This document shows positions 1 through 64,000 of a stretch of 64,000 bases of DNA, piece after piece. The notes under the pieces were generated by a model. The model saw only the letters and a list, made by a program, of their open reading frames with translations. It did no database searches and was not told the DNA's origin. The DNA comes from Bilabrum cf. latius (lineage: Eukaryota). The DNA lies in assembly GCA_965178125.1 (NCBI GenBank), contig OZ237756.1, positions 868,001 through 932,000 of the forward strand, given 5' to 3'. Every line of letters begins with the position of its first letter. Within the stretch, counting starts at the first letter, position 1. Both the position numbers and the translations under genes were made by a program.

Positions 1-1845
1 GCTGCAGCTGTGGTCGGATCCGTGCCACTAGCACCGGCTGCTCCTGCTGCAGCTGTGGTCGGATCCGTGCCGCTAGCACCGGCTGCTCCTGCTGCAGCTG
101 TGGTCGGATCCGTGCCGCTAGCACCGGCTGCTCCTGCTGCGGCTGCTGCCGGATCCGTGCCGCTAGCACCGGCTGCTACTGCTGCGGCTGCGGCCGGATC
201 AGTATCGATAGCCCCGGCTGCTACTGCTGCAGCTGCGGCCGGATCCGTGCCGCTAGCACCTGCTGCTCCTGCTGCAGCTGTGGTCGGATCCGTGCCACTA
301 GCACCGGCTGCTCCTGCTGCAGCTGTGGTCGAATTCGTATCGATAGCCCCGGCTGCTCCTGCTGCGGCTGCGGCCGGATCCGTGCCGCTAGCACCAGCTG
401 CTCCTGCTGCAGCTGTGGTCGAATCCGTGCCGCTAGCACCGGCTGCCCCTGCTGCGGCTGCGGCCGGATCAGTATCGATAGCCCCGGCTGCTACTGCTGC
501 GGCTGCGGCCGGATCAGTATCGATAGCCCCGGCTGCTCCTGCTGCGGCTGCGGCCGGATCCGTGCCGCTAGCACCGGCTGCTCCTGCTGCAGCTGTGGTC
601 GAATCCGTGCCGCTAGCACCAGCTGCTACTGCTGCAGCTGTGGTCGGATCCGTATCGATAGCCCCGGCTGCTCCTACTGCAGCTGTGGTCGAATCCGTGC
701 CGCTAGCACCGGCTGCTCCTGCTGCAGCTGTGGTCGAATTCGTATCGATAGCACCGGCTGCTCCTGCTGCAGCTGTGGTCGGATCCGTGCCGCTAGCACC
801 GGCTGCTCCTGCTGCGGCTGCTGCCGGATCCGTGCCGCTAGCACCGGCTGCTACTGCTGCGGCTGCGGCCGGATCAGTATCGATAGCCCCGGCTGCTTCT
901 GCTGCAGCTGCGGTCGGATCCGTGCCGCTAGCACCAGCTGCTCCTGCTGCAGCTGGGGCCGGATCTGTGCCGCTAGCCCCGGCTGCTCCTGCTGCGGCTG
1001 CTGCCGGATCCGTGCCGCTAGCACCGGCTGCTACTGCTGCGGCTGCGGCCGGATCAGTATCGATAGCCCCGGCTGCTACTGCTGCAGCTGTGGTCGGATC
1101 CGTATCGATAGCCCCGGCTGCTCCTGCTGCAGCTGTGGTCGGATCCGTGCCGCTAGCACCAGCTGCTCCTGCTGCGGCTGGGGCCGGATCAGTATCGATA
1201 GCCCCGGCTGCTACTGCTGCGGCTGCGGCCGGATCCGTGCCGCTAGCACCGGCTGCTCCTGCTGCAGCTGTGGTCGAATCCGTGCCGCTAGCACCGGCTG
1301 CTCCTGCTGCGGCTGCGGCCGGATCAGTATCGATAGCCCCGGCTGCTACTGCTGCGGCTGCGGCCGGATCCGTGCCACTAGCCCCGGCTGCTCTTTCGGC
1401 AGCTGTGGTCGAATCCGTATCGATAGCACCGGCTGCTACTGCTGCAGCTGTGGTCGGATCTGTGCCGCTAGCCCCGGCTGCTCCTGCTGCGCCTGCGGCC
1501 GGATCCGTGCCGCTAGCACCAGCTGCTCCTGCTGCAGCTGTGGTCGGATCCGTGCCGCTAGCACCAGCTGCTCCTGCTGCGGCTGCGGCCGGATCCGTGC
1601 CGCTAGCACCGGCTGCTACTGCTGCGCCTGCGGCCGGATCAGTATCGATAGCCCCGGCTGCTCCTGCTGCGGCTGCGGCCGGATCCGTGCCGCAAGCACC
1701 AGCTGCTCCTGCTGCGCCTACGGCCGGATCCGTGCCGATAGCCCCGGCTGCTCCTGCTGCGGCTGCGGCCGGATCCGTGCCGCTAGCACCGGCTGCTCCT
1801 GCTGCAGCTTTGGTCGGATCGGTGCCGCTGGCCCCAAGTGCGCCT
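1..1845. repeat. 45-bp coding minisatellite, about 41 copies visible, continuing beyond the window
   Basis: Unit gctgcagctgtggtcggatccgtgccgctagcaccggctgctcct with a few alternating sub-variants. In the cullin frame it encodes AGAAGA[SG/ID]TD[P/S][TT/AA]AA. Confidence 0.97.
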
Positions 1846-3422
1846 GCAGCGTTACTATCATAATAGTTCTGTTGATGCTGTTGCACGGCTCGCAGCATAG
1901 AAGCAGGCAGGGGCACGTCCTGCACGGGTGATTTCGTCAGAGGCCACCGAGCATTGCACAACACTCGGCAGCTGAACTCAATGCCGCCATAAGGTCCAGC
2001 GCCATAAGGTCCAGCCACATCTCTAGCACCCACCGAAGATTCACCTGCACCGGCGGAATCCGGTGCGTAGAAGTCGTTGAAAGTGCTCTCGAGCCGCATA
2101 GTGAACGCCACACCGTGGGCTTCCTTCATGGATGCAAGGACGAACCGTTCTGCGTCCTTTGACACGCTCTTACCCTAGAGCAGCCGTGTGGCTAGTTTTT
2201 GATGGTACCGGTCCCTCAAGAGGTCCTTGTCTGCGATGAGCTCAAACAGGGTCAAAAACTACCGAAGCAGCTCCAACACCTCGTCATCGGATCTCCTGAG
2301 ACCATATAATGTCCCTGTGAGCAAAGCATCGACCGCATCTACCAGCAGCATCCACATGGAAGACTGGCCTTTGGGAGGGGTTGCGTTTACAAAGCACTTG
2401 AAGGCCTCATTGACGCATCGTGTCAGCACACCGTCAGAATCAAAGCAGCGATCCACGAAGTGTAATTGTCTTGCGTAGGCTTCCACCGCGGCTAAGCACA
2501 GTGCCTGGTCCCGCACTGTTTGAGCGCGGCCATGAGAGCGTCGCAGGGCTTTTCCTGCCGCTTGGGATGCTCCGGAAGCGGGTGCTTCCTCTGGTGAGGC
2601 GTAAGGTGATCCACCATCTTGTTCGATGGCTTCCAGCTGCTCAGTGGAGTTGTCCGCAAGGTGGTGGCCAATTGCCTTGATGCCTGCCTGCGACTTAATG
2701 GCTTTGAGCTGGTTGTACAATCTGGCCAAGCCAGCCTCATCCTTGGATTGCAGCATGCGAGGCACGTTCCAACCTTCCATCACCCAGTCCAGGTGTGGCT
2801 CGATGAATGCCTCTGGGACTGTCGCCTCAAGTCTTATCCGGGTCATGGGTAGCACGCTTGCGAAAATACCCGTTTCGTACGGCTGCACTACCTCCTTGAC
2901 TCGCTCCAGGTACTCGATCGGCATGCAGGAGCGTCGCAGGCACTCTACATCTTCTTGGAACTTCGCCTTGCACCCCTCGATGCAGGGCTGCTCGACCCAG
3001 TCGTTGTACATGGGGCTGGCTGCGACGGCCTCGTCTGATTGCGTGCTTCGGATGAATTGCTTGAATGTCTTCCATTCCCCCTCCATGGACCTGGCTGCAT
3101 CTAGGGCCACTAGCATGAGGGACATGTCGCGCAGGTCATCAGTCGAGAAGGTCTGCACACCCCGTGCGATTGTCTCCTGGATCGCCTAGGCTATGCCCCG
3201 CCCAAGCCGGGATCCATGAGGATGAATGGCGATCTGCGAGGTTTCCAAAACATGCCGTAGTACAATACGCACAGTATGATGGAGATGGCGCGGTACGCGG
3301 ACCAATCCAGGAGAGGACGGCGATATCAGCTTCAGCACCGGGCCCGACTTAGAAGTCAGACGCTGGATGTACAACCTCTTTAGTCTGATACCGACCTGTG
3401 TTCCACCACCCCCTTCCCCCAT
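1..3422 (-). CDS. Divergent cullin-family protein with a large 15-aa tandem-repeat insertion; runs off the left edge, 5' exons uncertain (possibly up to ~4064)
   Basis: One frame joins ORFs 3186..3422 and 2259..3158 and continues through TAGs at 3186, 2259 and 2175. It reads LELLR*FLTLFELIADKDLLRDRYHQKLATRLL*GKSVSKDAERFVLASMKEAHGVAFTMRLESTFNDF...IEFSCRVLCNARWP...LPASM, matching the cullin homology motif (LFxYIxDKDxFxxxYxxxLAxRLLxxKSxSxDxE..KLEGMFxD; VLTxxxWP). The frame stays open into the repeat array. Confidence 0.8.
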
Positions 3423-4093
3423 CCATGCCCTGTATGCGTCTTCAGCTATTCAAAAATAGGCTACGTATCAGATCCAGATTAAACCGTAAAGGAAATAGTC
3501 CTGCCGCTGTTCCCGGGACTATCGGTCTTCACCCCAAACAACTTATTGCGCTGTGATCCTTTTGGAATAGTCTGGCTCTCACCTCATCAAACGCTCGAAT
3601 GCTGTCCAGAATTGGGCTGTGATCGTTAGGCAGTTTCCATCCTTTTGATGCGGCAAAGCTTCCGATCTTGTGCATGAATCGTAACGTCGAAAGAACGAAT
3701 AGACTATGTCGCCTGTACCTGACCAAACAAGTTCTGAACAAAAGATACGACAGCCGCAAAAAATAAAAAGATTTAATTGTGATACGAAGCATATGGAGTT
3801 GGCGCATGCTCTCACTCCTCGACGATCGTCCGCAGCTCTGCCACGATGTCTTTTCGTGCCATAGCCGGGGCCAGGGCCACATTCCCGCGATGTTTGAGTC
3901 GGGCGGTTATGGGTGGCTAAAAACTGCGGGCAGCGTTCGAACATCATGCAGAATTCACAGATTTCGCGAGACGACAGTTGCCGCGAGGCTCCCGGAGCCT
4001 CCTTAAAAACAAGATCCGATAGAAAACACAACTCTGGTTCCTGTTGAAGGATCGTATTCACCACGTGGATTCAGACCTACGACTTAAACCAAA

Positions 4094-4768: not shown

Positions 4769-7700
4769 TCACTAATGTGGGACATGATGCTCACCGACCG
4801 GCCTAGGCACGACACCCCCCTCTATTGGCCAGACCGCCATCCCATCGCTAGTTGTATCACTACATACAAGATAGCGCAATCGCACGGCGCTACCAGCATC
4901 TCCTCCCACCGCACCCCCTCGAGATCCCCCACCCACCACAGCCCTCTCTACAGCCCCAGCCACCGCCCCGGGCACCTGCAGCCCAGCGAGGAACAGACCC
5001 CGGGCCTCCCCATAGGCAGAGCTCCCTGCCCACCCAGCAGCCGCATGCCCTCCGCCCCACGTAGCATCGTACGCGGCAATCTCACCCAAAAGTGCACGCT
5101 ACTTAGCAACATCCCCAGCCCGCTCCGCCGCCCACAGCTCCTCCTCCAAGGCCCCCCTGGTCCGGCCGTAGTCCACACCCAGTGCTGTTGCGGCCGCCCG
5201 GCGGGCCCGGGACACAGCCCCGAGGTACAGGCCTTGCGCACTGCACTGCAGCGCATTCAGGACAGAGGCATCACCATTGTTCCCTAAATTGTTGTTCGCG
5301 TTGCTCCACACGATGGCACCGACCCGCGGCTCCACCGCCCCCTCGTCCCCGCAGAACGTGACCTAAACTCTCCGCTGTTCCCCAGCCGCGCCACCAAGCT
5401 CCGACCCCACCCCCACCCCCACCCCCACCCCCACCGCCCTCCCGAGATCGTCCATCCGCCCAGCCACAGCGTCATCCAGCACGCCTCCACCCCTGGGCCC
5501 CAGCCCGGCCATCCGCGCCAGCCGCTGCACCCAGGGGTCCATGCCAGGGCCAGATCCAGCTTCGTTGTTCCCCGAAAACGAACCTTCGCTCGGCATGAGA
5601 AGGCTCGTCGCCTGCACAGCGTCGTCCAACACGCGCCCCGTCGCATTGCTGAGGCTAGCGGGTGTGGCCCCCTGGCACAGCGAGGCGGGGGCGGGCAGGA
5701 TCAGCTAAACGGGGCACGACATGCGCGGCGCCATCGCACGCAGTGCGGAACCACCCGGCCCGTCCAGGACGCTTTGTTGCGTGTACTGAGCCCTCAGCAT
5801 TAAATCGGACAGCTGGCCCTTCCTGTCCTCTATCCCAGAGGTGGAGGACAGCCGGTCGATTGTGGCGCTCACGTGCATCTGCCCCACCGCCCTCGCCCCC
5901 TTGTGCGCGAGACCCTGAGGATCCAGCACCGGCACTCGCTTGAGGTCCTCCAGCAGCGTCTTATAGTGGGGAAACAGACTCGCCGCCCTGGGCAGGTCGA
6001 GCCAAAGGGACTGCACAGGCAGGGGCCGGGTCCTTGGCCAGCAGAGCACGACCCCAGCGGGCCACATGCCGCTCTTGCTGCTCTTGCTGCTCTTGCCGCT
6101 CTTGATGCTCTTGCTGCTCTTGCCGCTCTTGCTGCTGTTGTTAGGTTCCCTCTTTGCGGCCCATGCCGACTCCGACTCATACTCCTGCTCCTACTGATTG
6201 CTCGGCTCCATCCTCCCCGCATCCTCCTTTGACTTGTCTTTGTGTTCCCCCAGCAGACCCGCCAGCAGCAGCGCCCCCCAGGCGTCATACCTCTCTCCCA
6301 CCACCACCACGGGCCCTCCCACCCCCAGCGCCCTGCATGCATCCAGCCCGTCCTGGGCCTTGGCGTAGAGCCCCCCCGTGCGCAGGTGGAGGGAGCGGTA
6401 GGCCGCGGACTGCCGCACCGCAGTGCGCTGCACTTCGTCGGCTTCCTCGGCTTCGGCTCCGGTGAGGAGAGCTCGCGGAACCTTCCTGGGAATATTCCGG
6501 GCAAGTTCCGCGAGTCGCACGGCAGCCTGGTACCCCTCCAGCGATGGACCCCTTAATGAGGCGGTGAATGAGGTTGAGGTACCTGCGGATGATGCCTCAT
6601 CGACCGGAGCTGCTGCGGCTGCCCTGTCGTGGTCACCCGCTGAGTCTGATTGCGCGTCGAATTGTTTCACCGGTAGATCTGGCCCACCATCTGTGCCACC
6701 CGTCAGGTCAACTATGCCAATGCTCTTCCTCCTCCTCTTCTGCCTCGTCTCTTCTGTTCGCATGGGCTGCTGTGGGGCAGGGTAGGACGGCCGAAATCCG
6801 GAATTCGAGTCCGGCTCCGAGTCCCCAGGGAGCGGAGAGGTAGCACGAGCGAATTCCGAGCGGTCCATCGGTGGATTCACGCCTGCTTTGGCCACCCCCG
6901 CACCGTCACCCCCATCACCACCACGCCCCGAGGAAGACCAGATGCCCCTACCCATGGCCCGGCTGGCCCCCGCTCTGCTCCCCCCTCTCATCTCCCTCTC
7001 TCCCTCCACCTCACCCGTTCTGTGGAGCCCTTCCGCCGATTGGCCGTGCAGTGCGATGCACCTAAAACCGCGCGCCACCAGATCCGCCTGCACCAGCCCC
7101 CACACCGCCGCCGACTCCCCATCCCCCGCCAGCAGAACCGCCGTGGCAACGGGTATCGATCCCGGGTCCGAAGCGCTACCTGGCCCGGCATCCATCGCTA
7201 CCACGTGCCGCCTGGGCCGAAGCACAGGCCTCCTGGGCCGACTCGGAGCCAGAAACAAATCGTCCAGCCCGTCCTCATTGGACGCTACAGCATCTCCCTG
7301 CTCTCCTGCATGGGCAGAAGCAGCAACGGAGCCGGTTGTTGTGCCCCATCCGAACACGCTCTATCGGACACCCGCATTGGCACCACCACCGGCATTGCAT
7401 CTCATTGAGTGCTCCCATGCCGCTCGCTTGCTGGACCCAGGCAAACCAGGGGGCACCACTGCCGCTGGCCTGCCCAGCCTGCTGCAATACTCGTCATCCT
7501 GAGCCGGCGTGCGCCACCCGGCGCCGCGCAACTTGCGGAACCTGGTGCTCTGCCGCTCCGTGTGCACCTCGATGGCCCCGTCGCTGCGGGCGAGCAGGTC
7601 GTACCTGGTTGCAACCGCTCTCTAGGCTCCCGTCGCGCGGCGCCTCAGGATTCGGAGCTGCCTGGTGGCCAGCGGAACCGCGTCTTCCTCTTCCTTGTCG

Positions 7701-7840
7701 TCCAGGAAGGCGAGGCCCAGCAAGGAGGCCAAGAGTGAAAGGCCCACTGCAGCGAGAAACAGTATGAGGTTGTAGCGCTGGCTGTCTTGCCGCTCCTGCG
7801 ATGCACAGAGTGGGAAAAGGGGTGTCAGAACAGCCTTCAT
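4769..7840 (-). CDS. Hypothetical ~1020-aa protein with an N-terminal hydrophobic anchor
   Basis: Seven ORF-track fragments share one frame, broken only by TAG (7622, 7361, 6191, 5705, 5363, 5099, 4772); the first TGA is at 4769. TM-like LILFLAAVGLSLLASLLGLAFL. The true start may be on an upstream exon. Confidence 0.65.
6069..6136. repeat. 9-bp coding tandem repeat encoding (SKS/GKS)n
   Basis: gctcttgct-type units, about 7 copies, in frame with the 4769..7840 gene. Confidence 0.8.
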
Positions 7841-8470: not shown

Positions 8471-11155
8471 ATGAGTGTCTTCGTATTGGCCGGACCAGCG
8501 TGTCCAGAGGACGCTGGATATTTGCACAAACTTGGGAAACAAAAGGCAAGTAATTCGCGAAATTACATAGTTGCTCATATTGCTGTTGATTCCTGGGATC
8601 CAGTCGAGTCAAAGATTGTCGGATCCAAGTCTACATTGTTTTCTAGTTTTGAAGCGTTCGACGGCAGAGCTGCCTCGGATGATGGGCAGCCGCTGGTACT
8701 TGCACTTGGCCTAGGGAGGGCATTTCCAGCGGATGCAGATCGAACGGATGCCGAACGCCGGTCCAGCACAGTTGCAATCCCAGCCATTATCGAACAAATG
8801 GTTGCAAGAACTGCCCCCGGATCCGAATCTGTGGCATGCGTCGATCCCTTGCTGAGCATGGCTCCCTCCAACTCGAAGCGAGCAGAGCAGGTGCCCGCCG
8901 CGGCCGTCATCACCGACCCCAGAGAGCGCTGGTGCATCGGTGGATTAGAGCCGTGGGAGGCACGTAATGCCCTTCGGAAAGAACGTGAGAAGTGTCGCCA
9001 GCATAACGACCAATCGGCGCTGACCGGCCCCTCCGCGGCATCGTCGTCTGCTCCGATCGGACATGGTGCCTCACTAGGGGAGGTGCGAGAGGACGAGGCC
9101 ATCGAGCTGTCTACACCACCGCACTGGGTGTACGACGTGGAAGGTGGCGGTGTGACTAGTGACGAGGCGGGGCGATTGGCAGGCCGTACCGACAGCGAGA
9201 GCGAGGACGGAGACGAAGGCGAAGTAGGCGCGGTGAAGCTCGCCATCGAAACAAGCTGCTACCCTGTCGACGCCGATTACACTCGTCACACGGGATCAGG
9301 ATCGGAGCAGCCTGCGTCGCCATCGCCGCCGCCCCCCTGCCGGTCCATGCGGCTGCCAGGCAGGATGCACGAAGACCTGCTGCTGCGGCGGTCCGGCGCC
9401 GCGCAGCGGAACCTCTTGTGGAGGGTGCGGGTGAAGGTGCTGGAGCGGAGGGGTGCAGTTCCGCTGCTGCCGCCGGTTGCAACGCCTGGTGACATCGTGA
9501 CGAGTGCAGGTGCCGCCAGGCTGGGAGGGCTGTGGAACGGGTCTGGCGAGGAGGAGAACACAACATCGCAAGCAGCCTCGATGGACGCATCGCACTGCAG
9601 CGCCGCCGACGCAGTTCCTCTGGCCATTGAAGCCAAGGACCAAGGGGATAGTCTGCTCCGATCGGATCGGATCAGTGAGGCATGGAGGGCGTACGGGAGG
9701 GCCTTGGCACGGACCCAGGTGGGGGAGCCAGACGATTCGGACGGGCACGGCGATGGTCAAGAAGGGGGGCCAGATCGCTGCAGGACCGTGAGCATGGTCT
9801 TACAATAGAGGGACAAGGATGATGCTAGAGCGGAAGGTGAAGCTGGAGCGGCCAATGACCAATCGTCACGGGGCAATCGCACGCCTCATGGGCCGTCGGA
9901 GCCGCCACGGGCTCAGGCCCACCTGGCCCTGCAGGAGATACGGCTCCGAATACTGCTGAACCGCTCCCTCGCCGGCCGGCGCGTTGCCGAAGAGGTTCCA
10001 TCGGGATCTGGTGCGGGGGATTTGCAATGGAAACGTCCCGGGAAGTTCCTGGAACAGTCCCTGCACGACGCCCAGGAGGCGGGCCGGATCGGCTTGATGC
10101 TCGTGCAGCACCACTGGCATGCACAGCGCGACGATGAAGACGATGGCGATGCAGGGGCCAGTACAACCGCCTCTGGGCCACCTGCAATCGGGACGGAAGC
10201 CTCATCCCACTCGTCACACCTGAAATCAGCGCTGGGCCTGTACCGCAAGGCCCGGCTCCGGAGGGCCCGGGCGAGGATGGCCGCGATTCGGGCGTGCCGG
10301 AAGGGGACCGCTGGTGGCGGTAGCTGCTACAGTAGCGGTACAAGAAGTGGCGGGATAGAAGGGAGGCAGGATCGGTCGGGTGCTGCCGCCGCCACCACTC
10401 GTCACACAACAGATCCCCGAGGCAGCCTCGGTCTTCCCACCGCGGAGAGCACCGGCTGCTGCCTGCTGGGAGCCCTGGCGGATCTTATCGCGGCCACGGG
10501 CGGGGGTGTGGCGAGTGACAGTGTGACGAGTGAAAGTGTGACGAGTGCTGAGGGGAACAGGGAAGACGTGTCGCTGGGACCGGGCGATAGGCTGCTTGCT
10601 GCAGGTCGCGCCGCTTGTAGGCCGGTCCAGAGCATGGCGCGCGGCGGTGTGACGAGTGAAGGGAGGGTGCGGTCGCTGGCCATGATGCAAATCCCCAGAG
10701 CGATGCCGTCGGCCGAGCCCTTCGCATGCGTAGGGGACCCGGAATCAATACCGCTCGCGGAGTTGGTCGCAGATGTGCAGGGGGCCCTCTCTGGGCCCGA
10801 TGGCCTCCGCTAGAGGTGTGATGAGCGTCCGTGGTGTGACGAGTGGGAGTCGCAGGCACGGTGGTGGCTCGAGGAGGAAGCCGGGCCGGCGGTGGCAAGC
10901 AGAAAACGAACGTTCGGTGGGATTCTCTGCAGAGAGCCGGGCAAGGAGGAGACCAAGAAGGGGGAGGTATCGGCAGGGACAAGAGCAGTAGAAGCATCTG
11001 CAGCAATAGGTGCCGGTGCAGTGGCAGACCGCGAACTGGGCGAGCATGTCGGTGGGAGCGGCAGCCACATGCGTGGGCAACATGGCGGTGACGAGAGTGA
11101 CGCCGAAGGTGAGGACGAGGACGGCCTGGGCCTGCCTCCACTCGAGTACGCATGA
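8471..11155 (+). CDS. Hypothetical ~890-aa protein
   Basis: ORFs 8471..9808, 10022..10813 and 10892..11155 are one frame joined across TAGs at 9806 and 10811, ending at TGA 11153. No family recognised. Confidence 0.65.
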
Positions 11156-14975: not shown

Positions 14976-15042
14976 TAAGGATGGCTACATCCAATCGTGG
15001 GTAGTATGCTCAGCCTGTCCAATCTAGTACCTTACATGACTC

Positions 15043-54775: not shown

Positions 54776-57343
54776 ATGGCTGCGGTTGGCGATCCCAATG
54801 CGCGAATTAAATCCCTCGAGGAGCAGCTCCAGGCTGAAAAGGATAGGTGCAAGCAGATGGATAGGACGGTCACCCGGCTGCGGACGCTGAACTCCAACGG
54901 GGATAAAGAGCTACGACGGGTTAGCGAGATTCTCACAAAGAGTTAGAACGCAAGGGCCTTGCAGGATGCCATCCGAGAGAAGGATGATATGATAAAGAGC
55001 AACAAGATGCTTCAGGACTTGATCCGAACAACGAGTGAGGAAGCAGAGGCACATCGCTCTGCGAAAGAAAAGCTAGAAGCCCAAGTAGAATCATTACATG
55101 CTCGGCTGAGCCATCTTGGAAAGAAGACGGACGGCGAAGGCGAAGCCGCCAAGCCCGAAGCGACCAGCGGGGCGGGCCAGGCAGGCGGGTCCGGGGCGAG
55201 CGCTCCCGCCGAGGCAGAGCCCAGCGCAACGGAGCGCCTGCAGCTGGCCCAGTAGGAGCTGGAGCGCCTGGAAAAAGCCGCCCTGGACGCCAAGCGGCTC
55301 GCATCCGCGGACGAGAGCGACTCGGACGCGAAGGCCAGGAGCGACGCCGCCGAGGAGGCCGTCACATCCGCCAAAGATTGGGTCACAAAACTGGAGGACG
55401 AGGTGCAGGCGGAATCGGAGCGGAAAATCAAGGAGCAGCGGGAGAGGGACCGTGAGCTTAGGAAGGAGAGGACCAAGCAGAGGGAGCTGGAGGCAAGGGC
55501 GAGCAAGGCGGAGGAGGCGCTGGAGGCCGTGCGCAAGGAGCTGGAGGAGGCCAGGGAACAACTGTCCAAGGCCACGGCGCAGCAGGAGCAGGCGGGAAGC
55601 GCCGCGGGTAAGGCGCAGGAGGCTTTGGTGAGGAAGCACGTCGAGGCGGAGGAGCGGGCAAGCGAGCTCTCGTCCAAGCTGGAGGCGGTGGAGGCGGCGC
55701 GGGCGCAGCTGGAGGCATCGCTGGAGGACGAGAGGAAGAAATGGAACGAGGAGAGGGCGGCGCAGGCGGAGCAGATGGTAGATGCGATCGAGCAGGCCAA
55801 GAAATCAGCGGCCGAAGTGGCCGTCAAGGCCGCCATGCAGGACGCCGAGGCCAAGCACGGCAAGGAGCTGGAGGCCGCCCGCAAGGAGGCAAAGGACGCT
55901 GCAGAGGCGGCGGCCAGGGCCAAAGAGGAGGCGGGGCAGGCGGCAAAGCACGAAGACATTGTGGCGAAGCTGACCGAGGCGGCCGCGAAAGCAGAGGAGC
56001 AGGCCAAGGAGTCGGAGGAGAAGGCTGCCGCGGCGGAGAAATCGGCCGAATCGGCGCGGCAAAAGGTGATCTCGAGGGAGAGGAAGATCCAGCAGCTGGG
56101 GGAGGAGGCTGCGCAAGCGGAGAGCAGGGCAAAAGACGAGTCTAGCAGGAGGGAAGAGGCAGAGGCGGCCGCGGCCCAGGCCCACAGGGAACAAGCCAAG
56201 GCAGAGACGCTCGCGCAGGAGCTCAAGGACCGCCTAGAGGCAGCGGAGTAGGCGGCGGAATCGGCGCGCGAGGCGGCCCAGCGGGCGCGAGACGAGCTAG
56301 CGGCGGCCATCGAGGCCCGGACCGCAGCCGAAGAGGCACAGGAGGAGGCCCAGGAAGGCCGCAAGGAGGCCGAGGGCAAGCTCAAGGGGCTGCAGGAGGA
56401 AGCCGACAGGCTGCGGGAGGAAGCCACCAACTTTGAGGACCGCTTGGAGGAGCAGAATGCGAGGCACAGGCTCCACATGAAGAAGACGGAGCAGCTGGTC
56501 AAGGACCTCAAGCCGCAGCTGAGACAGGAGCTGGAGAAGGGCAAGAAGCTCGAGGCAGAGACGGAGAGGCTCAGGCGGGATTTGGACAGGGCACGGGCGG
56601 CCGTGGCCAAGGCGCAGCAGGCCCAGGGAACAAGGGCACCGCAGAGCGCGCCTGGGGTCAGCGGCGGAGGGCCGGGAGGCATGCGAGGCACGCCGACGGG
56701 GAGGGCAGGGGCGGGCGGGGGGCCCGGATCGGCGGGCGCGGGCGCGCGGGCCGGGGCGTCTGTTGCCGGCCGGGGTGGCGGTTCAAGGCGATCTCTACTG
56801 GGTGGAGGTCGAGGCAGGGGCGCGGGCGGGTCGCCGGCCCTGCGTGGCGGCTCTGCTGGGAGCAACGGCAGGGGCAGGGGCAGGGGGCGAGGAGGAGGAA
56901 GAGGAGGAGGTTCCCCCATGCCTGCGGGAGGCGTGGATGCCGAGACCTTGCAGCTGCTGTCGCAGCGGATGCAGGCCGCGGTGCAGCGGGCGGGCGAGCA
57001 CGAGGCCAAGGTCAAGTACTTGGAGGGGACGGTGCGGGAGCTGCAGGGCGAGCTGAAGGCCACCAAGGCGCTGCTGAGGCAGCACACGCGCACGGCCGCT
57101 GCATCCATAGAAGGGGCGGCGGATGCTGCAGTGGAGGCGGCTGCCAAGGGGCCTGGAGCAGTCGTGCAGCTGCGTGCCCTTGCGAGCAAGCGGGGCGAGG
57201 AGATTCAGAGGCTCAAGGGAGACGTGAGGACGATCGCTGGGGAGCTCGCCAAGGTGCAAGGGGGAGGGGACGCGGGTGCGAGTGGGGATGGGGCGGCGGG
57301 AAGCTCGGACGGTGATGCTGCCTCTGGCGGTGATGGAAAATGA
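54776..57343 (+). CDS. Long coiled-coil protein, C-terminus reminiscent of GRIPAP1/CCDC186
   Basis: Single frame through TAGs at 54944, 55253 and 56249; E/K/A-rich heptads; KKTEQLVKDLKPQL and EAKVKYLEGTVRELQGEL motifs. The family call is weak. Confidence 0.75.
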
Positions 57344-57572: not shown

Positions 57573-59938
57573 TCAACTCCTCCGTCGGTTGCCCCTTCGC
57601 CTTGGCCTTGCTTGGCTTGCATTGCCCTCTTCCTCGTCCACGCCGCTCCCCGCCCCATCCTCTCCTTCCGCCGCCTCCTCCGGGATGTCCTCGTCCTCCG
57701 CCTCCATGATCGCCTCCACGTATTGCGCCTTCCTCGTGAGCCCTTTCCGACTCACCCCCCTCTCGTCGCATAAAGCCTTGAGCTCGACCGCTTTGAGGCC
57801 CATGAGCTCCTCCTGGCGAGCCTCGGGATCGTATGCCTCTAACCCATCTGGCATCGGCTGCTCGGACGCCTCGCCGCCAGCGCCATCTTCGCCGCCGCTG
57901 GCAGCAGCGGGGCTTGCGTCGCTCTCATCATCTGCGGCAGATGAGTCCCTTCCATTAGCGCTTCCTTTGGAGCTAGGAGATGCACTGGCCTCGGTTGCCA
58001 CCCCGGGCACCACTTCCGCATCGGCGAGGTCTTGCGCAATCTGTGCGGGTCTGGTCCTGGATTTGGTCCGGGCATCCCCCTCCCTCACCGGCATGATCGG
58101 CTTGGTCCTGGGGAGCTGGCTGTATGCGAAGATGCCAACAAACGTCACCACAGCTGCCGCGATCTGCAGCGGGGGCATCTCGTGTCCGAACAGAGCCACG
58201 GACAGCACCATCGTGAGTACTTTGCGCGCGGTTAGCACGAGCGAGATGACCATGGCATCCGCGTTCGCCACCAGAGTCTGCACCCCCAGGATGCACATCA
58301 CCTGCGACAGGCCGTTCAGAAGCACAAACAGGCCAAGGAGAGGCAGGCTGCCCGCCCACTGCCCCACTCTCTATAGCCCACCCGTATCGCTGTTCTTGGC
58401 GGTATCGATCCCGCGCGCGTACCACTGCAACCACCCGGGCAGCGCCGCCCCGCAGCCCACGCCCGCTGCAGTCCCCCCGACCTGGCAGGCAGTGGGAGCA
58501 TCGGCGCCCGCCCACAGCTCCACCTTGCTCTCCAGCCCGAGCCGCGCAGGGCTCGTGTTGTTCCACGCGGCGAGGTTGAACCCGACCTCCATGTCTTCCT
58601 GCCCCGATGCCGGCGGGGCATCGTCACCGGAGACATCGCCGAACACAGCCCACAAGTCGCCCGCCCAGACGGCCGGCGAGACTGCACCGCCCAGCGTGTA
58701 GCTGTCGGGGTGGTTCTGCAGCAGGCGCCTCGCGGTCTTCTGGATGGCTTGTTCCCTGAGGCTCGAGTGCACAGGCAGAGAGGCGTCCAAAGCGGTAGCG
58801 TCCAAAGCGGCGCTATCCCCCAAGTGGTCCTCGTCGTGGCCCTACAGCCCCAGGGTAGCGATATTCCGCATGTGCGCGGCGACCTTCTCCCCCTGCGGCT
58901 TGAGATCCTCGAGCGTCCAGACCAGCAGCGGCAGCAGGCAAAGAGCGTGCGTCCAGAAGGTGGCCTGCTCCGGCCTGCCCCTAAACCGCTTGTTGGTCTC
59001 CCCTTGCATGTGGGTCAGGAAGGAGCCCAGCATCGAGGCAGCAACCAGGCACAGAGCACCGCGCTGACCCCACGCACTGCTCAGGACGTCCTATGGGGTC
59101 AGATCCGAGGCCCAAGCAAATACGGCTCCGAGTCCGTCGGCGCCATCGTCGCCAGCCGCGACGTCGCCTCGGTCACCCCCAGCGGTCCTGCTGATGGCAA
59201 AAGTGGCAGCCCCGGCGAATACCACGAAGGAGGCGACGGCCTGCTGTAGGGTGTAGCGCTTCCTGAACACGAGTGCCCCGATGGCCAGCGTGGTGACGAT
59301 GTGTGACGATCGGATGACAACGTTGAGAGTCTGGTCCACCTTGGGGAACTAAAAGGCGAGGTTGTTGAGCGCGCTCATGGGCAAGAAGATCATCACGTGG
59401 ATGACGTATTCCGATAGAGGCACTTGCGGCAGCTGCAGGTAGGGGAGGGGGACGGGGAGCCCGGGAATCCACGCGCCGAACTGCGAGAGACACGTGGATG
59501 GATCAGATCGCGTGTCAGGTTGGCGAGGAGCTCGTATGGAGGCATCGATGCTGTCCAGACAAATGAAGCAATTAGTAGTATATGTTGAATTCTAAATGTT
59601 TCGCTGCACGAGTGGCGGCAGCCTCTCACTCCGATTGCGTACGGCAGCAAGCACAGCACGACACACGAGTACTGGATAGTCGTGAGGAGCAGTCCCGCCC
59701 CAGGGTCCGCAAATAGCAACGAAATATCATCAGTTCCACCGGAGGCAGTTTTCACGTTTCCTCTGCGGATCTACTAGAGCGTTCTCAGGTATACAGGCAA
59801 AATGTGATCCAGTGTTCTGATACCAATCATTACCTTGATACCTAGGACTCACTCCGTGACGAGCTCCAGGAACACATTGTTAATAATGCATCCACCCAAT
59901 GTGAGCAACAAACCCACGTACAGCCCCGCGGCTGGCAT
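57573..59938 (-). CDS. SLC35B4: Nucleotide-sugar transporter (SLC35B4/YEA4-like) with C-terminal SAP/HeH-like motif; at least 2 introns near the 5' end
   Basis: GGCIINNVFLEL, PGAGLLLTTIQY, LNNLAF*FPKVDQTLNVVIRSS..RKRY, FWTHALCLP, NGLSQVMCILGV, LVLTARKVLTMVLSVALF. TAGs at 59349, 59091, 58842 and 58371; stop is TGA. Confidence 0.82.
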
Positions 59939-60192: not shown

Positions 60193-62503
60193 ATGCAGCA
60201 TTTTGATACCGCCTTCCATGCGATTGTATATAGCCTGGGTAACCTGATTTGTACTGCATCGCGCAGTGGCAGGGGGTAAGACGACAATAGGTCGAATCCT
60301 GACGAGAGATGGGTACGTCGTGATTGACGCCGAAAAGGTCAAGAGTCAGGTAATACGAGACGAAAAAGACCCCAAAATAACTCGTAAAGTAGCGCAACTG
60401 GCTGGATATGAATCGATTGGGGTAAGTGGCAGGGTTTCAATCGATGTAATCAAGTCGAAAATACAGAGGGACCCAGAGCTCAGACGGCGCCTAGAAAAGC
60501 TCTTTTGGAAAGCAGTTGAAGCGCGGATCAGGGGGACATTGGACGCACTTGAGCGTGGGGATACAGAGGCCGCGGGAACCTACGTAGAGGGGGGTAGGGT
60601 GGTTGTGCAGGCAGCAGCGAAGAGCGGCAGGCGCCTGCTGTTCGTCCAGGCCAAGCATCTCCTCCGACTGGGCTGGCAGCGGCGGCTGGCCGTCAGGGAA
60701 GTGTGGGCCGCTTGGTGTCCCCGGCGTGAAGCCATTCGCCGCATCATGATCAAGGGGTAGGGTGGTGTGACGAGCGAGCGCGCTGCTCGCCTGCTCGATG
60801 ACGGCCCCTCTCCGTCCGAGTCTGCGGCCGCCGCGCACGTGGTCATCGGCACGCACGCCTTCGAGGGGACAGAGGCGCTGAGGGGAGTGGTGCTGCAGGA
60901 GGCGGGAAAGAGAGCCAAGGGGGGGTGGCACCAGGGGGGTGCGGGAGAGGGCGAGGGCGGGGCTGGGGCTGGGGTTACGGGAGAGATAGAATCAGGCGAG
61001 GGCATGAAGGGAGAGGGCAGGGCGGGAGCCGGGACGGGAGGCAGCAGCGGGAGCACTGCAGGGGCCAGCACGGCCAGCACAGAGGCAGTGGTATCGGGAA
61101 CAGCCTAGGGAACAAGCCAGGGAACTGCAAGGGCAGGTGCCGTAGAGTCTGGGGGCGCGTTGGTGCTGGGCGCCGCGCCGTGGTACGACCCCACGGGGTA
61201 TGATTCCCATGGAGGCGACGCCGCGGAGACGAGCGAGGCAGTCTCCTCGGACGAGTCCGTGCTGCTGGTAGACCGGAACAACAGGCCCGTGGGTCCCATC
61301 CCGCGGTCCCGCATGCGCCAGGAGAACCTGTGGCACCGTGCCAGCTTCGTGTTCATCCGCACGGGGATCGGTCTCCTGCTGGTGCAGCTCCGATCGAGGG
61401 GCAAAGACTACTGCCCCTCGCACTTCGACACCTCCACCGGTGGAGTGGTGGGCGCAAACGAGGCCGATGACATGGATGGGTCAGCGGCCAGGGAGGTGGC
61501 CGAGGAGGTGGGCATCCTGGTGGAGGCGCCGGCATGGCGGGGGGACGCGCTGCCCAGTGCATCAGAGAGGGCGGGCGATGACGCTGCAAGTGCGAGTAGC
61601 GGGCACGACGAAGCCCGCGATGCACCTAGCGCTAGCACTGGCGAGTCCAAACAATCCACTGCTGTGGCACCACGGGCAGAGGAAGGCGCGGGTGGGCTGG
61701 AGACATCCGTGCTAGGACTGTCAGAGGGAGGGCGCGCGGGGGATGGTAGCAGGGGCCCTCATGGGGAGGGTCTCATGTCTGTCTCCGCGGTGGGGGGTGC
61801 TGGGGGGCAGGATGGGGCAGCGGGGGGGGATTTCCCCCGACCCGTGCGCGGCGCCCGTCTGTCGTTCATGGGTTGGACCAGGTACGAGGACGAGAGAGCG
61901 AGGTGCTGGTGCGCCGTGTATGACCTGAGAGTACCCTCTTAGCCGCGGCTGCAGCTGCAGGCCAGTGAGGTGGAGGACGCACGGTGGGTGTCTCTGGAGG
62001 AGATCCGTCGAGGTCGCAAGGCGGGGCAGAGGTGGACCCCTGACGGGACAGAGGTGCTAGGGAGGTATGTGAGGGCAATGGGGGGAGACCTCAGCAGGGA
62101 TCACGCGCCCGCGCCGGTGGGATCGTGTGAGATGCTCAGGCTGGGACCGGGAGCGGACGGCGGCGAGGGTGCGAGCTGGGCTGCGAGCACTCTGCCGGGA
62201 GATTGCAGCAAGGGCGGTGGATCGGATGGGGGTCATCGTGCGGGAGAAAGCGCCGGAGACTCGCAGGAGAGTGGGAAGGATTCGGCGATTCGGTGGGGGC
62301 GGCTGGCGGGACTAGCGGTGGGGCTGGCTGGATCATCTGTGCTGCTGCACTACATGCGCGACCATTGGAAACCGAAGGGGGGTGGTTTGGCGGGGCGAGT
62401 GTACGACGCCTGTGCCATGCCTGGACAAGCCACTGTGAAGGGTGCTATGGCTGCGAAGCAAGCAGCATTGCAGTTGACAGCCCGTGGAAGCAGGACAATG
62501 TGA
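60193..62503 (+). CDS. Dephospho-CoA-kinase-like domain fused to an IDI/YfcD-like Nudix hydrolase, with C-terminal hydrophobic segment
   Basis: AGGKTTIGRIL..GYVVIDAEK..DPELRRRLEKL..EVWAAWCPRREAIRRIM (CoaE-like), then LVDRNNRPVG..LWHRASFVF..VQLRSRGKDYCPSHFD..GGVVGANE..AAREVAEEVGI (Nudix box)..LQASEVEDARW..WTPDG. One frame across TAGs at 60758, 61106 and 61940. The start assumes a 28-nt intron. Confidence 0.8.
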
Positions 62504-62796: not shown

Positions 62797-63452
62797 TGAC
62801 CCCCTACAGTTGCTCTATCTGAAGCATCGGCTGCGACTGAGCCGCCACGACTGTACTGGCCGGTGTGCATGTGCCGGGCAGGGTCAGCTGTTCGTTCGCG
62901 AACGTTCAGCTGATACTGGCGTGATCTTGTGATCGTCCGGCGAGGTGTCATTCCGGTTCGAGTCTACACTGGGGAAAGAGAGAGATCAGCCCCTGCGCTT
63001 GACAGGACTAGCAAAGAAATACAGAAGCCGCCTTAGCCAGTAGCTTTTGTCTCTCCCACCCACCCAAGACTCGGCCAAGGGGGAGGCAGCCAAGAGGGCT
63101 GCCTGGGGATGTAGTGATTTGTGTGAATTGATTGACCCATTGGCAGGGAGTCGTTTCTCTGAGACGACGGGGCGCACCGGCCGTGCCGGCAGGGTTGCGG
63201 GCCAGTGGACCAGGTGACTCCGAGGCGGGAGCCCACCCCAGGTCCTGTGCCCCGTCGCTCTCTTTCTCAGCACCATTAACTGGTGGGTCTACACATTTGT
63301 TAATGAACTCCGAGCAAGCATTACAAGATCTGTCGCAGACTAAGCAGGACCTTACCTCTACTAACTTTGACGTGACCCCCCACAGTTGCTCTATCCGAAG
63401 AATCGGCTGCGACTGAGCCGCCACGACTGTACTGGCCGGTGTACATGCGCCG
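62797..63452. repeat. ~80-bp dispersed direct repeat (62797..62876 and 63373..63452)
   Basis: Both copies read tgacccc..acagttgctctatc.gaag.atcggctgcgactgagccgccacgactgtactggccggtgt.catg.gccg with few mismatches. Confidence 0.9.
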
Positions 63453-64000
63453 TCGCCGCCTACCCATGACCAGACCTGTACTATCACGAAGAATACGACG
63501 ACGACGGCCAAGCCGTGGAACCGCCAAGCCAACTGCTTCATCAGCCGCACCCCCAGCCTAACCCGAGTCCTGACGGGGCATCCTGCATATAGGGCACGTA
63601 CTTTCCCTACCCCTGTGCCTCTGCGCCTCAAACCACCCCTCAATGCAGTCCTTGTGGAACACATGCCCGCACTGCAGCGCCATAGGCTCGTGCTCACCCT
63701 CAGCATCCTTCACGTCATCTCCCAGACACACCAAGCACACACGATCATTATCGTCAGGGTCTCGCCCCTCATCCACCTCGCACGTGTCGGTGGTAGGCCC
63801 CACAAGCGCCCCGAGACAGGCCGCCCCGCCAGCAGCTGCTACTGCTTGCTTCAGCTCTTCTGACCCTGCAGCAATATTCCACAGGGCCCCAGCGGCCCAA
63901 GCTGACTCGATTCCCGCTCTCGATCTTTGCATAGCAACAAGTGCAGCCGGAACACCTGCATCGACAAGAGCTTGCTTGATGTCAACATACCCACGAGATA
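63321..64000 (-). CDS. ARM-repeat + RING-H2 protein (putative E3 ligase), 5' end outside the window
   Basis: AAGALWNIAAGSEELKQAVAAAG (ARM), then CLVC..CGHVFHKDC..W..CPIC (C3H2C3). The frame continues through TAG 63558 to TAA 63321; the 3' end may be spliced further. Confidence 0.85.

What the first reader, a model, noticed from the sequence alone, without database searches (positions are those of the whole stretch)
1..64000. Nuclear genetic code variant: TAG is a sense codon, most likely glutamine
Seen: about 80 in-frame TAGs split nearly every gene into same-frame pieces, with no frameshifts or decay, and the sequence after each TAG continues the same domain. Established motifs put TAG on Gln positions: serine racemase FKCECF*RSGSFK (53462; family motif FQ[K/R]xGSFK) and IELLA* (53822; E-x-L-x-Q); dynein RIIT*PGGHAMLVG (43489; RIxxQPxGxxLLVG), NLIA*KADS (46708) and QLTF*LI (40636); ARM ELK*TVV (19683) versus LKQAIV in sister repeats. 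No fixed flanking context is seen, which argues for full reassignment over programmed readthrough. Established: TAG=Gln with TAA kept as stop corresponds to NCBI table 15 and is rare among nuclear codes, since most variants move TAA and TAG together. Inference: this GC-rich flagellate does not look like a ciliate, so it may be an independent, undescribed reassignment.
Basis: partly seen in the sequence, partly recalled or inferred. Interest (0 to 1): 0.96.

Follow-up and report, generated by a model that had tools for sequence, protein, structure and literature searches.

The report
Stop codon TAG reads as glutamine
This stretch of nuclear DNA comes from a GC-rich flagellate related to Cafeteria that reads the stop codon TAG as glutamine, which appears to be the first nuclear genetic-code change seen in the stramenopiles.

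Summary
In 14 gene models (16,740 codons) there are 64 in-frame TAG, 0 in-frame TAA and 0 internal TGA. The off-frames of the same genes carry 84-96 TAG, 37-49 TAA and 287-344 TGA. All 13 genes whose 3' end is in the window end in TGA.

TAG is kept in contigs of three other runs that join across GT..AG introns. 13 of the 15 TAGs in the laid 20 kb sit in listed pieces with no differing letter.

A Codetta-like test on homologue columns recovers the standard meaning of 61 of 61 sense codons and calls TAG glutamine. The per-column score is 0.52, against 0.47 for CAG. One TAG sits on a column that is Gln in 120 of 120 serine racemase homologues.

The base after TAG follows the same pattern as the base after CAG. 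The dynein gene groups with Cafeteria, a bicosoecid stramenopile, at 65% identity.

UAG=Gln without UAA is already known in Iotanema and two ciliates. This is therefore a new, apparently unpublished member of a known kind, unusual in being GC-rich and ending its genes in TGA.

Not shown here: TAA ending a gene, the tRNA, eRF1, or whether TAG never terminates.

The parts
3..3422 (-). Cullin-like gene; its 3' end runs off the window. TAG codons at 3186, 2259, 2175. The C-terminal part (about 3-1740) is an Ala/Gly-rich tandem repeat.
   Evidence: Pfam Cullin 8.6e-43. TAG positions. Homologue columns Q 16/147 and 18/150.
4769..7840 (-). ORF with no family match; 7 TAG (7622, 7361, 6191, 5705, 5363, 5099, 4772). 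The last TAG stands directly before the TGA stop.
8471..11155 (+). ORF with no family match; 2 TAG (9806, 10811); ends in TGA.
11537..12496 (-). His/Asp/Cys-rich ORF; 1 TAG; ends in TGA. The TAA-ended ORF on the opposite strand (11666-12682) looks like its antisense shadow.
13082..14668 (-). ORF with no family match; 2 TAG (14537, 13244); ends in TGA.
15043..18366 (-). Kinase + armadillo-repeat gene; 8 TAG (18244, 17164, 17050, 16411, 16099, 15595, 15565, 15091); ends in TGA.
   Evidence: Pfam Arm 4.9e-51 and Pkinase 6.4e-13. Compared with its paralogue.
19101..22313 (-). Paralogous kinase + armadillo-repeat gene; 9 TAG (22137, 22065, 21378, 20667, 20361, 20235, 20109, 19683, 19155); ends in TGA.
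   Evidence: Pfam Arm 2.3e-58. 353 of 548 aligned residues identical to the paralogue; TAG stands opposite Q three times, E twice, W once and F once.
23825..28648 (+). Ank/PH/WW/CH-domain gene with no TAG; GC3 0.84; ends in TGA.
29089..32901 (-). Weakly kinase-like gene; 10 TAG (32401, 32371, 32227, 32128, 31750, 31606, 30952, 30829, 30604, 30487); ends in TGA.
34966..37068 (-). Coiled-coil ORF; 5 TAG (36667, 36637, 36124, 35623, 35206); ends in TGA.
37540..37795 (+). DUF3253-domain exon with a TAG at 37669 inside the domain. A GTGAG 5' splice-site-like sequence follows at 37796. The TAG cluster at 37951-37962 downstream may be intronic.
   Evidence: Pfam DUF3253 5.7e-24 over aa 7-79. Sequence. 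The intron is inferred, not shown.
38374..52494 (-). Axonemal outer-arm-type dynein heavy chain, exon 2; 6 TAG (50014, 46708, 43489, 41269, 40636, 39769); ends in TGA at 38374.
   Evidence: 1,100 homologues with E <= 0.001, 120 listed; columns. A contig of run X5 covers 46537-52494 without a differing letter.
52495..52752 (-). GT..AG intron of the dynein gene (258 nt). Exon 1 with the ATG lies at 52753-52833.
   Evidence: Joint 52494/52753 in contigs of X5 and X6, while the X1 contig runs straight through. Splice sites and reading frame.
53057..54400 (+). Serine racemase / threonine dehydratase-type PLP enzyme; 2 TAG (53462, 53822); ends in TGA.
   Evidence: Pfam PALP 6.7e-78. Human serine racemase 6.4e-92 with Q at both places. 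Columns Q 120/120 and 33/49.
54776..57343 (+). Coiled-coil gene; 3 TAG (54944, 55253, 56249); ends in TGA.
   Evidence: X5 contig 54576-56691 has no differing letter.
57573..59480 (-). UAA/SLC35B-type transporter, last exon; 4 TAG (59349, 59091, 58842, 58371); ends in TGA. Upstream introns at 59481-59629 and 59763-59852. The TAG at 59592-59594 is intronic.
   Evidence: Pfam UAA 4e-37. Joints seen in X5, X6 and X7. TAG 58371 stands opposite Q in a relative that is 64% identical.
60267..62503 (+). CoaE/NUDIX gene, from its second exon on; 3 TAG (60758, 61106, 61940); ends in TGA. The intron is at 60146-60266.
63321..63998 (-). ARM + RING-H2 gene fragment; its 5' end is off the window. TAG at 63561, 9 codons after the RING. 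The 79 codons from there to the TAA at 63321 score as non-coding.
   Evidence: Pfam zf-RING_2 5e-10. Coding score -0.19 and GC3 0.47. The 88-nt repeat lies inside this tail.

Best explanation
The window is nuclear DNA of a GC-rich, intron-poor heterotrophic stramenopile whose closest named relative is Cafeteria (Bicosoecida). Its cytoplasmic ribosomes read UAG as glutamine. UGA ends the genes, and UAA is kept out of reading frames, so it is most likely still a stop. This is the NCBI table 15 pattern (table number recalled).

Shown here: UAG is frequent inside conserved, transcribed and spliced genes, and the columns it occupies are glutamine columns.

Inferred from known cases (PMC5304391, section 9): a tRNA-Gln with anticodon CUA decodes UAG but cannot pair with UAA. 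It would be one base change away from tRNA-Gln(CUG). The release factor eRF1 has lost its grip on UAG while keeping UGA and UAA. UAG then spread as a minor synonymous Gln codon. It makes up 9.5% of Gln codons and is rare in the most codon-biased genes.
For: (1) Codon counts in 14 gene models (16,740 codons): 64 in-frame TAG, 0 TAA, 0 internal TGA. The two off-frames of the same genes carry TAG 96/84, TAA 37/49 and TGA 344/287. The result does not depend on the ORF definition: with TGA as the only stop, TAAs appear only upstream of the start codons.

(2) 13 of 13 complete genes end in TGA.

(3) Calibrated column test on dynein, serine racemase and cullin homologues (390 sequences). The best amino acid equals the standard meaning for 61 of 61 sense codons. 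TAG (10 columns) is called Q at 0.52 per column, with N next at -0.03; CAG scores 0.47 and CAA 0.38. The mean Q fraction is 0.29 at TAG columns, 0.32 at CAG, 0.21 at CAA and 0.026 at non-Gln codons. In 5,400 subsamples of 10 columns the true residue won 5,359 times, and no non-Gln codon was ever called Q. Summed log-odds are Q +5.2, N -0.3, S -1.6, K -2.7, E -5.4, W -13.8. Without the invariant column they are Q +3.8 against N +1.1.

(4) TAG 53462 is Q in 120 of 120 homologues, and TAG 53822 is Q in 33 of 49 ungapped ones. Human serine racemase has Q at both places.

(5) In the two in-window paralogues, TAG stands opposite Q at 3 of 7 aligned sites. TAG 58371 stands opposite Q in a relative that is 64% identical.

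(6) The DNA-run contig (X1, 46101-62876) and contigs of three further runs from two other studies agree. The only differing letter listed is 48855 G>A in X6, which is not at a TAG. 13 of the 15 TAGs in 43000-62900 lie in listed X5/X6/X7 pieces with 0 other letters. Five of these TAGs lie on contigs that also join across GT..AG introns which the DNA contig still contains. TAG is therefore neither an assembly error, nor edited, nor spliced out.

(7) The base after TAG is distributed like the base after CAG.

(8) The four introns hold all three stop triplets, unlike the exons.

(9) Taxon: the best-hit cluster holds Cafeteria roenbergensis/burkhardae proteins. In a 25-sequence dynein tree the query is sister to Cafeteria plus one unnamed sequence, with support 100 and 65% identity over 4,449 columns.
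Against: Two dynein TAG columns have almost no Q: 1 of 120 at 43489 (mostly N) and 1 of 119 at 39769 (mostly S, P, N).

Three tandem ARM repeats carry TAG at the position where the repeat consensus and two sister repeats have Trp. In the paralogue comparison TAG also stands opposite E (twice), W (once) and F (once).

No tRNA gene is in the window, and no genome is held. The decoding tRNA and eRF1 are therefore unseen.

None of the 13 complete main gene models ends in TAA. Its role as a stop is inferred only from its absence in frames.

In two small ORFs (RING 63321-63998, DUF3253 37540-38208) the coding signal fades after a TAG. This could mean that TAG still terminates there.

Only about 71 TAG sites from one 64-kb window were available. 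The taxon rests on a single gene and a FastTree with only stramenopile names in it.
Confidence: 0.9

Rival explanations
1. Ambiguous code: UAG is glutamine inside genes but still ends translation at some gene ends, depending on context. This is how UAA behaves in Blastocrithidia and how the stop codons behave in Condylostoma and the karyorelict ciliates.
For: In the ARM+RING gene the 79 codons after TAG 63561 score as non-coding (-0.19, not the best frame, GC3 0.47) and contain an 88-nt dispersed repeat. In the DUF3253 ORF three TAGs fall within four codons (37951-37962) and the tail behind them scores as non-coding. One gene ends TAG-TGA.
Against: For all 12 main genes that have a TAG, where a segment follows the last TAG, that segment scores best in the coding frame. 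TAGs lie 15 and 17 codons before the TGA of the two ARM genes, which does not fit stopping by position. The DUF3253 TAG cluster follows a strong GTGAG 5' splice site and carries the same CTAGTAGATC motif that precedes the 3' end of the confirmed intron 59763-59852, so it is probably intronic. The RING tail ends at a GTAAGG site and may be an exon. Neutral C-terminal extensions are also expected after a full reassignment. The segments are short, so their scores are noisy.
Confidence: 0.1
2. Both UAA and UAG mean glutamine (the common ciliate/hexamitin code, NCBI table 6, number recalled). UAA is simply too rare to be seen in this GC-rich genome.
For: No gene in the window is shown to end in TAA. 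All 13 complete genes end in TGA, which is what a TGA-only stop set predicts.
Against: With CAA/CAG = 0.21, 64 TAGs predict about 13.5 in-frame TAAs; 0 are seen (Poisson P about 1e-6). TAA occurs 37-49 times in each off-frame of the same genes, and directly upstream of start codons in the TGA-only ORFs.
Confidence: 0.04
3. UAG is a sense codon, but for another amino acid (Trp, Glu, Lys, Leu, Tyr) or for a mixture of residues.
For: TAG stands at the consensus Trp position of three ARM repeats and opposite W, E and F in the paralogue. E is the most common residue in dynein column 46708 (43 of 120).
Against: Summed log-odds are W -13.8, E -5.4, K -2.7, L -8.1 and Y -11.0, against Q +5.2. One column is Q in 120 of 120 homologues. 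The method never called a non-Gln codon Q in 5,400 subsamples. The three ARM TAGs are near-identical tandem copies, so they count as one event, and sister repeats have K, A or F at that site.
Confidence: 0.03
4. There is no code change: the TAGs are sequencing or assembly errors, lie in introns, are edited in the mRNA, or mark decaying pseudogenes.
For: One counted TAG (59592) does lie in an intron. Gene models outside 43000-62900 were not checked against transcripts.
Against: Contigs from four runs in three studies agree letter for letter at the TAGs, and contigs that carry splice joints keep them. TGA and TAA are completely purged from the same frames, which decay would not do. There are up to 10 TAGs per gene, so leaky read-through could not yield protein.
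Confidence: 0.01

Closest known systems
Iotanema spirale (Metamonada: Fornicata): UAG = Gln, UAA and UGA stops (PMC5304391; abstract and section 9 read)
   Same: Only UAG is reassigned, and to glutamine. UAA is not a sense codon. It is a non-ciliate flagellate. The mechanism predicted there is tRNA-Gln(CUA) plus an altered eRF1 (T32G in the GTS motif).
   Different: It belongs to a different supergroup. There UAA is the primary stop, whereas here 13 of 13 genes end in TGA and the DNA is 61% GC. Iotanema is known from a transcriptome only. The eRF1 and tRNA of the present organism were not available.
Hartmannula sinica and Trochilia petrani (phyllopharyngean ciliates): UAG = Gln (PMC11687900; abstract and section 10 read)
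   Same: UAG alone is reassigned to Gln. The codon is widespread: 78-84% of genes there hold an internal UAG, and 13 of 14 gene models do here.
   Different: They are ciliates. UAA dominates their stops (91.9% of genes in H. sinica, as stated; UGA is used by 8.1% in H. sinica and 13.1% in T. petrani). UAG is 18.5-31.8% of Gln codons there, against 9.5% here.
Rhizarian exLh (Sainouroidea): UAG = Leu (PMC5304391)
   Same: UAG is uncoupled from UAA in a non-ciliate nuclear code.
   Different: The amino acid is Leu. Here Leu scores -8.1 against Q +5.2.
UAR = Gln codes (many ciliates, hexamitin diplomonads, oxymonads, some ulvophytes; listed in PMC5304391)
   Same: A stop codon is reassigned to glutamine, and a tRNA-Gln(CUA) is known in Tetrahymena and Spironucleus.
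   Different: In those codes UAA is also Gln. Here there are 0 in-frame TAA where about 13.5 would be expected.
Cafeteria roenbergensis/burkhardae (Bicosoecida), the closest named relative
   Same: The dynein orthologue is 65% identical and sister in the tree. Both are stramenopile flagellates.
   Different: The Cafeteria orthologue is annotated as an uninterrupted 4,629-aa protein, so it holds no in-frame stop codon. At the six TAG sites the representative of its 90% cluster has A, Q, N, R, Q, K. The code change would have arisen after the split from the Cafeteria lineage. This rests on one gene only.

Membership tests
Nuclear code with UAG = Gln and UAA/UGA as stops (NCBI table 15 pattern) | UAG occurs in frame inside conserved protein-coding genes | tested here: met
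   64 TAGs in 14 gene models, with Pfam domains and homology running across them.
Nuclear code with UAG = Gln and UAA/UGA as stops (NCBI table 15 pattern) | Columns aligned to UAG are glutamine | tested here: met
   Q scores 0.52 per column against CAG 0.47. 61 of 61 control codons are called correctly. One column is Q in 120 of 120 homologues.
Nuclear code with UAG = Gln and UAA/UGA as stops (NCBI table 15 pattern) | UAA is not a sense codon | tested here: met
   0 in-frame TAA in 16,740 codons; about 13.5 expected from the CAA/CAG ratio; 37-49 in each off-frame.
Nuclear code with UAG = Gln and UAA/UGA as stops (NCBI table 15 pattern) | UAA ends genes | tested here: inconclusive
   0 of the 13 complete main genes end in TAA. 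Two small ORFs run to a TAA, but their tails look non-coding or contain likely introns.
Nuclear code with UAG = Gln and UAA/UGA as stops (NCBI table 15 pattern) | UGA ends genes and is absent inside them | tested here: met
   13 of 13 genes end in TGA; 0 internal TGA against 287-344 in the off-frames.
Nuclear code with UAG = Gln and UAA/UGA as stops (NCBI table 15 pattern) | UAG is present in the mature mRNA (not edited, not spliced out) | tested here: met
   13 of 15 TAGs lie in listed contigs of X5-X7 with 0 other letters. Five of them are on contigs that also carry a GT..AG splice joint. These are contigs, not raw reads.
Nuclear code with UAG = Gln and UAA/UGA as stops (NCBI table 15 pattern) | A tRNA-Gln with anticodon CUA exists | not testable with these tools
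   No tRNA in the window and no genome held.
Nuclear code with UAG = Gln and UAA/UGA as stops (NCBI table 15 pattern) | eRF1 is altered in the stop-codon-reading motifs (GTS, NIKS, YxCxxxF) | not testable with these tools
   eRF1 is not in the window and no genome is held.
Ambiguous stop/sense codes (Condylostoma, karyorelicts, Blastocrithidia UAA) | The same codon also terminates genes, depending on its position | tested here: inconclusive
   Two small ORFs lose their coding signal after a TAG. Introns or neutral extensions explain them as well.
Stramenopiles: Bicosoecida-like lineage | Orthologues group with bicosoecids in a tree | tested here: met
   The dynein heavy chain is sister to Cafeteria plus one unnamed sequence, support 100. 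This is one gene, FastTree, and all named rows are stramenopiles.
Stramenopiles: Bicosoecida-like lineage | Placement by 18S rRNA or by many genes | not testable with these tools
   No rRNA in the window and no genome held.

The most novel reading that the evidence does not exclude
This is the first nuclear genetic-code change in the stramenopiles. It is an independent UAG-to-Gln reassignment in a Cafeteria-related flagellate. It arose in a GC-rich genome where UGA, not UAA, is the working stop. That is the opposite setting from the known UAG-only cases that I read (the two ciliates and Iotanema), where UAA is the main stop. It may also keep some stop function for UAG at a few gene ends.
Probability: 0.55. 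Interest if true: 0.88.

Novelty: new member of a known kind. Interest (0 to 1): 0.8.

Why it matters
Nuclear code changes are rare. Changes that separate UAG from UAA are known from only a handful of lineages: Iotanema, a rhizarian and a few phyllopharyngean ciliates.

A case in a stramenopile would add a new supergroup. It would also add a new genomic setting, because this genome is GC-rich and ends its genes in TGA. That tests ideas that tie stop-codon capture to AT pressure and to UAA being the dominant stop.

It matters in practice too. Standard gene callers cut almost every gene of this organism into pieces (13 of 14 models here), so its proteins are missing or fragmented in public protein sets.

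Bicosoecids include the host of a giant virus and its virophage (abstract of 10.1101/751586). A code barrier could therefore shape which viruses can replicate in this lineage.

If the organism is in culture, it would offer a system for studying how eRF1 and glutaminyl-tRNA synthetase adapt.

Tried and rejected
- Whole genome: none is held. A genome-wide code test, a tRNA-Gln(CUA) search and eRF1 inspection could therefore not be run.
- tRNAs and RNA families in the window: 0 tRNAs and 0 Rfam matches.
- Run search: no RNA holder is listed. X5-X7 are only guessed to be RNA, and one is marked 'probably DNA'. I rely on what their contigs bridge, not on the labels or the depth.
- Two TAGs (58371, 61940) are not in the listed pieces. 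That table is truncated, so this says nothing about them.
- Relatives in metagenome contigs: searching with P0241 and with the cullin N-terminal part gave no confirmed locus. Whether close relatives share the code stays open.
- UAA transporter homologues: the length window left only 1 hit. The match to human SLC35B1 around TAG 59349 is too weak to count (stretch score 3.5 bits).
- Earlier findings of this scan: nothing for this genome or this sequence.
- Dynein columns alone did not decide between Q, S and N. The decision needed the serine racemase columns and the calibration.
- Correlation of TAG use with GC3 across the 14 genes is only suggestive (Spearman -0.53, p = 0.052), and there is none with CAA use (0.28, p = 0.34).
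- TAA-ended ORFs in the gaps between genes (4094-4711, 11666-12682, 18373-18885 and others) have no family match or low GC3. I did not accept any of them as a gene ending in TAA.
- The bacterial promoter/terminator scan has no bearing on a eukaryote.
- Supplementary files of the papers (for example the eRF1 alignment of PMC5304391) were not consulted.

Full report
**What is there**

The window is 61% G+C and eukaryotic. It holds a roughly 4,700-residue axonemal dynein heavy chain, a cullin, two kinase+armadillo genes, an Ank/PH/WW/CH gene, a serine racemase-type PLP enzyme, an SLC35B-type transporter and a CoaE/NUDIX gene. Genes lie on both strands with short spacers.

Read with the standard stops, every one of these genes but one falls into same-frame pieces. 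Read with TAG as sense, they become single long frames.

**Is it more than chance, and is it circular?**

With TGA as the only stop, the same frames appear. Their only in-frame TAAs lie upstream of the start codons.

In 14 gene models (16,740 codons) there are 64 TAG, 0 TAA and 0 internal TGA. The two off-frames of the same genes carry 96/84 TAG, 37/49 TAA and 344/287 TGA. TAA and TGA are purged from the reading frames and TAG is not.

All 13 genes whose 3' end lies in the window stop at TGA.

**Is it an artefact, an intron effect or editing?**

One run (X1) gives a contig across 46101-62876. Three runs from two other studies (X5-X7) give contigs identical to the window. The only differing letter listed in 20 kb is 48855 G>A in X6, which is not at a TAG.

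The X5-X7 contigs skip four segments bounded by GT..AG in the sense of the gene: 52495-52752, 59481-59629, 59763-59852 and 60146-60266. The X1 contig contains these segments, so the X5-X7 contigs represent spliced transcripts.

13 of the 15 TAGs in 43000-62900 lie in listed pieces of these runs with no differing letter. Five of them are on contigs that also carry a splice joint. The introns themselves contain TAG, TAA and TGA.

One TAG that the ORF reading would count (59592-59594) is intronic. The same data move the dynein start into an upstream exon (ATG at 52833 on the minus strand).

**Which amino acid?**

I collected 120 dynein, 120 serine racemase and 150 cullin homologues. I read off the residues aligned to each codon of the window's genes.

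- The serine racemase TAG at 53462 is Gln in 120 of 120 homologues.
- The one at 53822 is Gln in 33 of the 49 ungapped homologues. Human serine racemase has Q at both places.
- The six dynein columns are variable: Q in 16/119, 31/120, 1/120, 52/120, 19/119 and 1/119.
- The two cullin columns have Q in 16/147 and 18/150.

Summed log-odds over the 10 columns give Q +5.2, N -0.3, S -1.6, K -2.7, E -5.4 and W -13.8. Without the invariant column they give Q +3.8 against N +1.1.

As a calibration I ran the same procedure on every sense codon. It returns the standard amino acid for 61 of 61. In 5,400 random subsamples of 10 columns the true residue wins 5,359 times, and no non-Gln codon is ever called Q.

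The per-column score of TAG for Q (0.52) equals that of CAG (0.47) and CAA (0.38). The mean Q fraction is 0.29 at TAG columns, 0.32 at CAG, 0.21 at CAA and 0.026 at all other codons.

Independent smaller observations agree:
- In the two paralogous kinase+ARM genes (353 of 548 aligned residues identical), TAG stands opposite Q at 3 of 7 aligned sites.
- TAG 58371 stands opposite Q in a relative that is 64% identical.
- TAG 19683 sits where 7 of 10 sister ARM repeats have Q.

Observations pointing the other way:
- Two dynein columns have almost no Q.
- In the paralogue, TAG also stands opposite E (twice), W (once) and F (once).
- Three near-identical tandem ARM repeats carry TAG at the consensus Trp site. 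Other sister repeats have K, A or F there.

**Reassignment or programmed read-through?**

There are up to 10 TAGs per gene, and 13 of 14 models carry at least one. The base after TAG (G 24, C 18, A 17, T 5) mirrors that after CAG (G 211, C 129, A 111, T 55). This is general decoding, not a signal-dependent event.

TAG makes up 9.5% of Gln codons. It is scarce in the most codon-biased genes: 6 of 209 Gln codons in dynein (GC3 0.92) and 0 of 52 in the Ank gene (GC3 0.84). It behaves like a minor synonymous codon, although the trend across the 14 genes is only borderline (Spearman -0.53, p = 0.052).

**TAA**

If TAA shared the meaning of TAG, the CAA/CAG ratio (0.21) predicts about 13.5 in-frame TAAs. 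None is seen (P about 1e-6). TAA is therefore not a Gln codon here.

That TAA actually ends genes is not shown, because 0 of the 13 complete main genes end in TAA.

**Does TAG ever still stop?**

For all 12 main genes that have a TAG, where a segment follows the last TAG, that segment scores best in the coding frame.

Two small ORFs differ:
- After TAG 63561 of an ARM+RING gene, 79 codons score as non-coding and contain an 88-nt dispersed repeat.
- The DUF3253 ORF has three TAGs within four codons, followed by a non-coding-like tail.

The DUF3253 cluster follows a GTGAG site at 37796. It also carries the CTAGTAGATC motif that precedes the 3' end of the confirmed intron 59763-59852, so an intron is the simpler reading. 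The RING tail ends at a GTAAGG site.

I leave a remaining stop function of TAG at about 10%.

**Whose genome?**

The best dynein hit is labelled 'Symbiodinium sp. KB8'. It belongs to a 90% cluster with Cafeteria roenbergensis/burkhardae proteins and sits intronless on a 16-kb contig. It is probably a contaminant record.

In a 25-sequence tree the window's dynein is sister to Cafeteria plus one unnamed sequence (support 100, 65% identity over 4,449 columns). Further unnamed sequences and then the other stramenopiles lie outside that group. All named sequences among the best 120 hits are stramenopiles apart from that record.

This is one gene and a quick tree. It is enough to say 'bicosoecid-like stramenopile, not a ciliate'.

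The Cafeteria orthologue is annotated as an uninterrupted 4,629-residue protein. On this one gene, the change post-dates the split from the Cafeteria lineage.

**How it most likely works (inferred, not shown)**

As argued for Iotanema (PMC5304391, section 9), reading UAG but not UAA requires a tRNA with anticodon CUA. That is one base change from tRNA-Gln(CUG). It also requires a glutaminyl-tRNA synthetase that accepts this tRNA, and an eRF1 with weakened recognition of the third-position G.

**Comparison with what is known**

UAG = Gln with UAA retained is known in Iotanema spirale (PMC5304391, abstract and section 9 read). It is also known in the ciliates Hartmannula sinica and Trochilia petrani (PMC11687900, abstract and section 10 read). 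UAG = Leu is known in a rhizarian and in three uncultured ciliates.

In the two ciliates UAA is the dominant stop (91.9% of genes in H. sinica), and UAG makes up 18.5-31.8% of Gln codons. Here TGA ends 13 of 13 genes, the DNA is GC-rich and TAG is 9.5% of Gln codons.

Seven full-text searches found no nuclear code change reported for a stramenopile or a bicosoecid. The two follow-up reads showed only mitochondrial or unrelated mentions. Papers outside that library, and supplements, were not seen.

**Verdict**

This is a new member of a known kind of code, in a new major lineage and an unusual compositional setting. Interest 0.8.

Noticed in passing
window 3-1740 (- strand): The cullin-like gene continues into about 600 residues of Ala/Gly-rich tandem repeats (units such as AAAGAAGASGTDP), where a cullin normally has its C-terminal half. 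All frames on both strands are open there. Pfam gives a weak collagen-like match (1.1e-06).
   Followed up: no
window 15043-18366 and 19101-22313 (- strand): Two neighbouring paralogous genes fuse a kinase domain to 9-11 armadillo repeats. One also holds a (PPA)n run. The repeats within a gene are near-identical tandem copies, and three of these copies share a TAG at the same place.
   Followed up: partly
runs X5-X7: Contigs identical to this window, including spliced ones, occur in runs filed under two other coded organism names in two other studies. This organism therefore seems to live alongside, or to contaminate, other sequenced material. I did not try to identify the samples.
   Followed up: no
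P0001: The record named 'ODA4, partial [Symbiodinium sp. KB8]' clusters at 90% identity or more with Cafeteria roenbergensis/burkhardae dynein and is intronless on a 16-kb contig. It is probably a Cafeteria contaminant in that assembly.
   Followed up: partly
window 62789-62876 and 63365-63452: An 88-nt direct repeat (91% identical, 576 nt apart) lies downstream of the ARM+RING gene. One copy lies inside the ORF tail that follows TAG 63561.
   Followed up: partly
window 37540-37795 (+ strand): There is a DUF3253 domain gene here (family as named by Pfam; that it is mostly bacterial is recalled). It has an in-domain TAG and a likely intron, so if it was acquired by transfer it has since adapted to the host's code and splicing.
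   Followed up: partly
window 59763-59852 and 37950-37962: The motif CTAGTAGATC lies just upstream of the 3' splice site of a confirmed intron. It recurs in the TAG cluster of the DUF3253 ORF. It may be a branch-point or 3' intron element of this organism.
   Followed up: no
window 38254-45228 (+ strand), opposite the dynein gene: Very long antisense ORFs (up to 2,324 codons) run opposite the high-GC3 dynein gene. They are a composition effect, not genes, but they would mislead a gene caller.
   Followed up: no
window 4769-4774 (- strand): One gene ends TAG-TGA. It either has a terminal glutamine or keeps a relic of an old TAG stop that is backed up by TGA.
   Followed up: no
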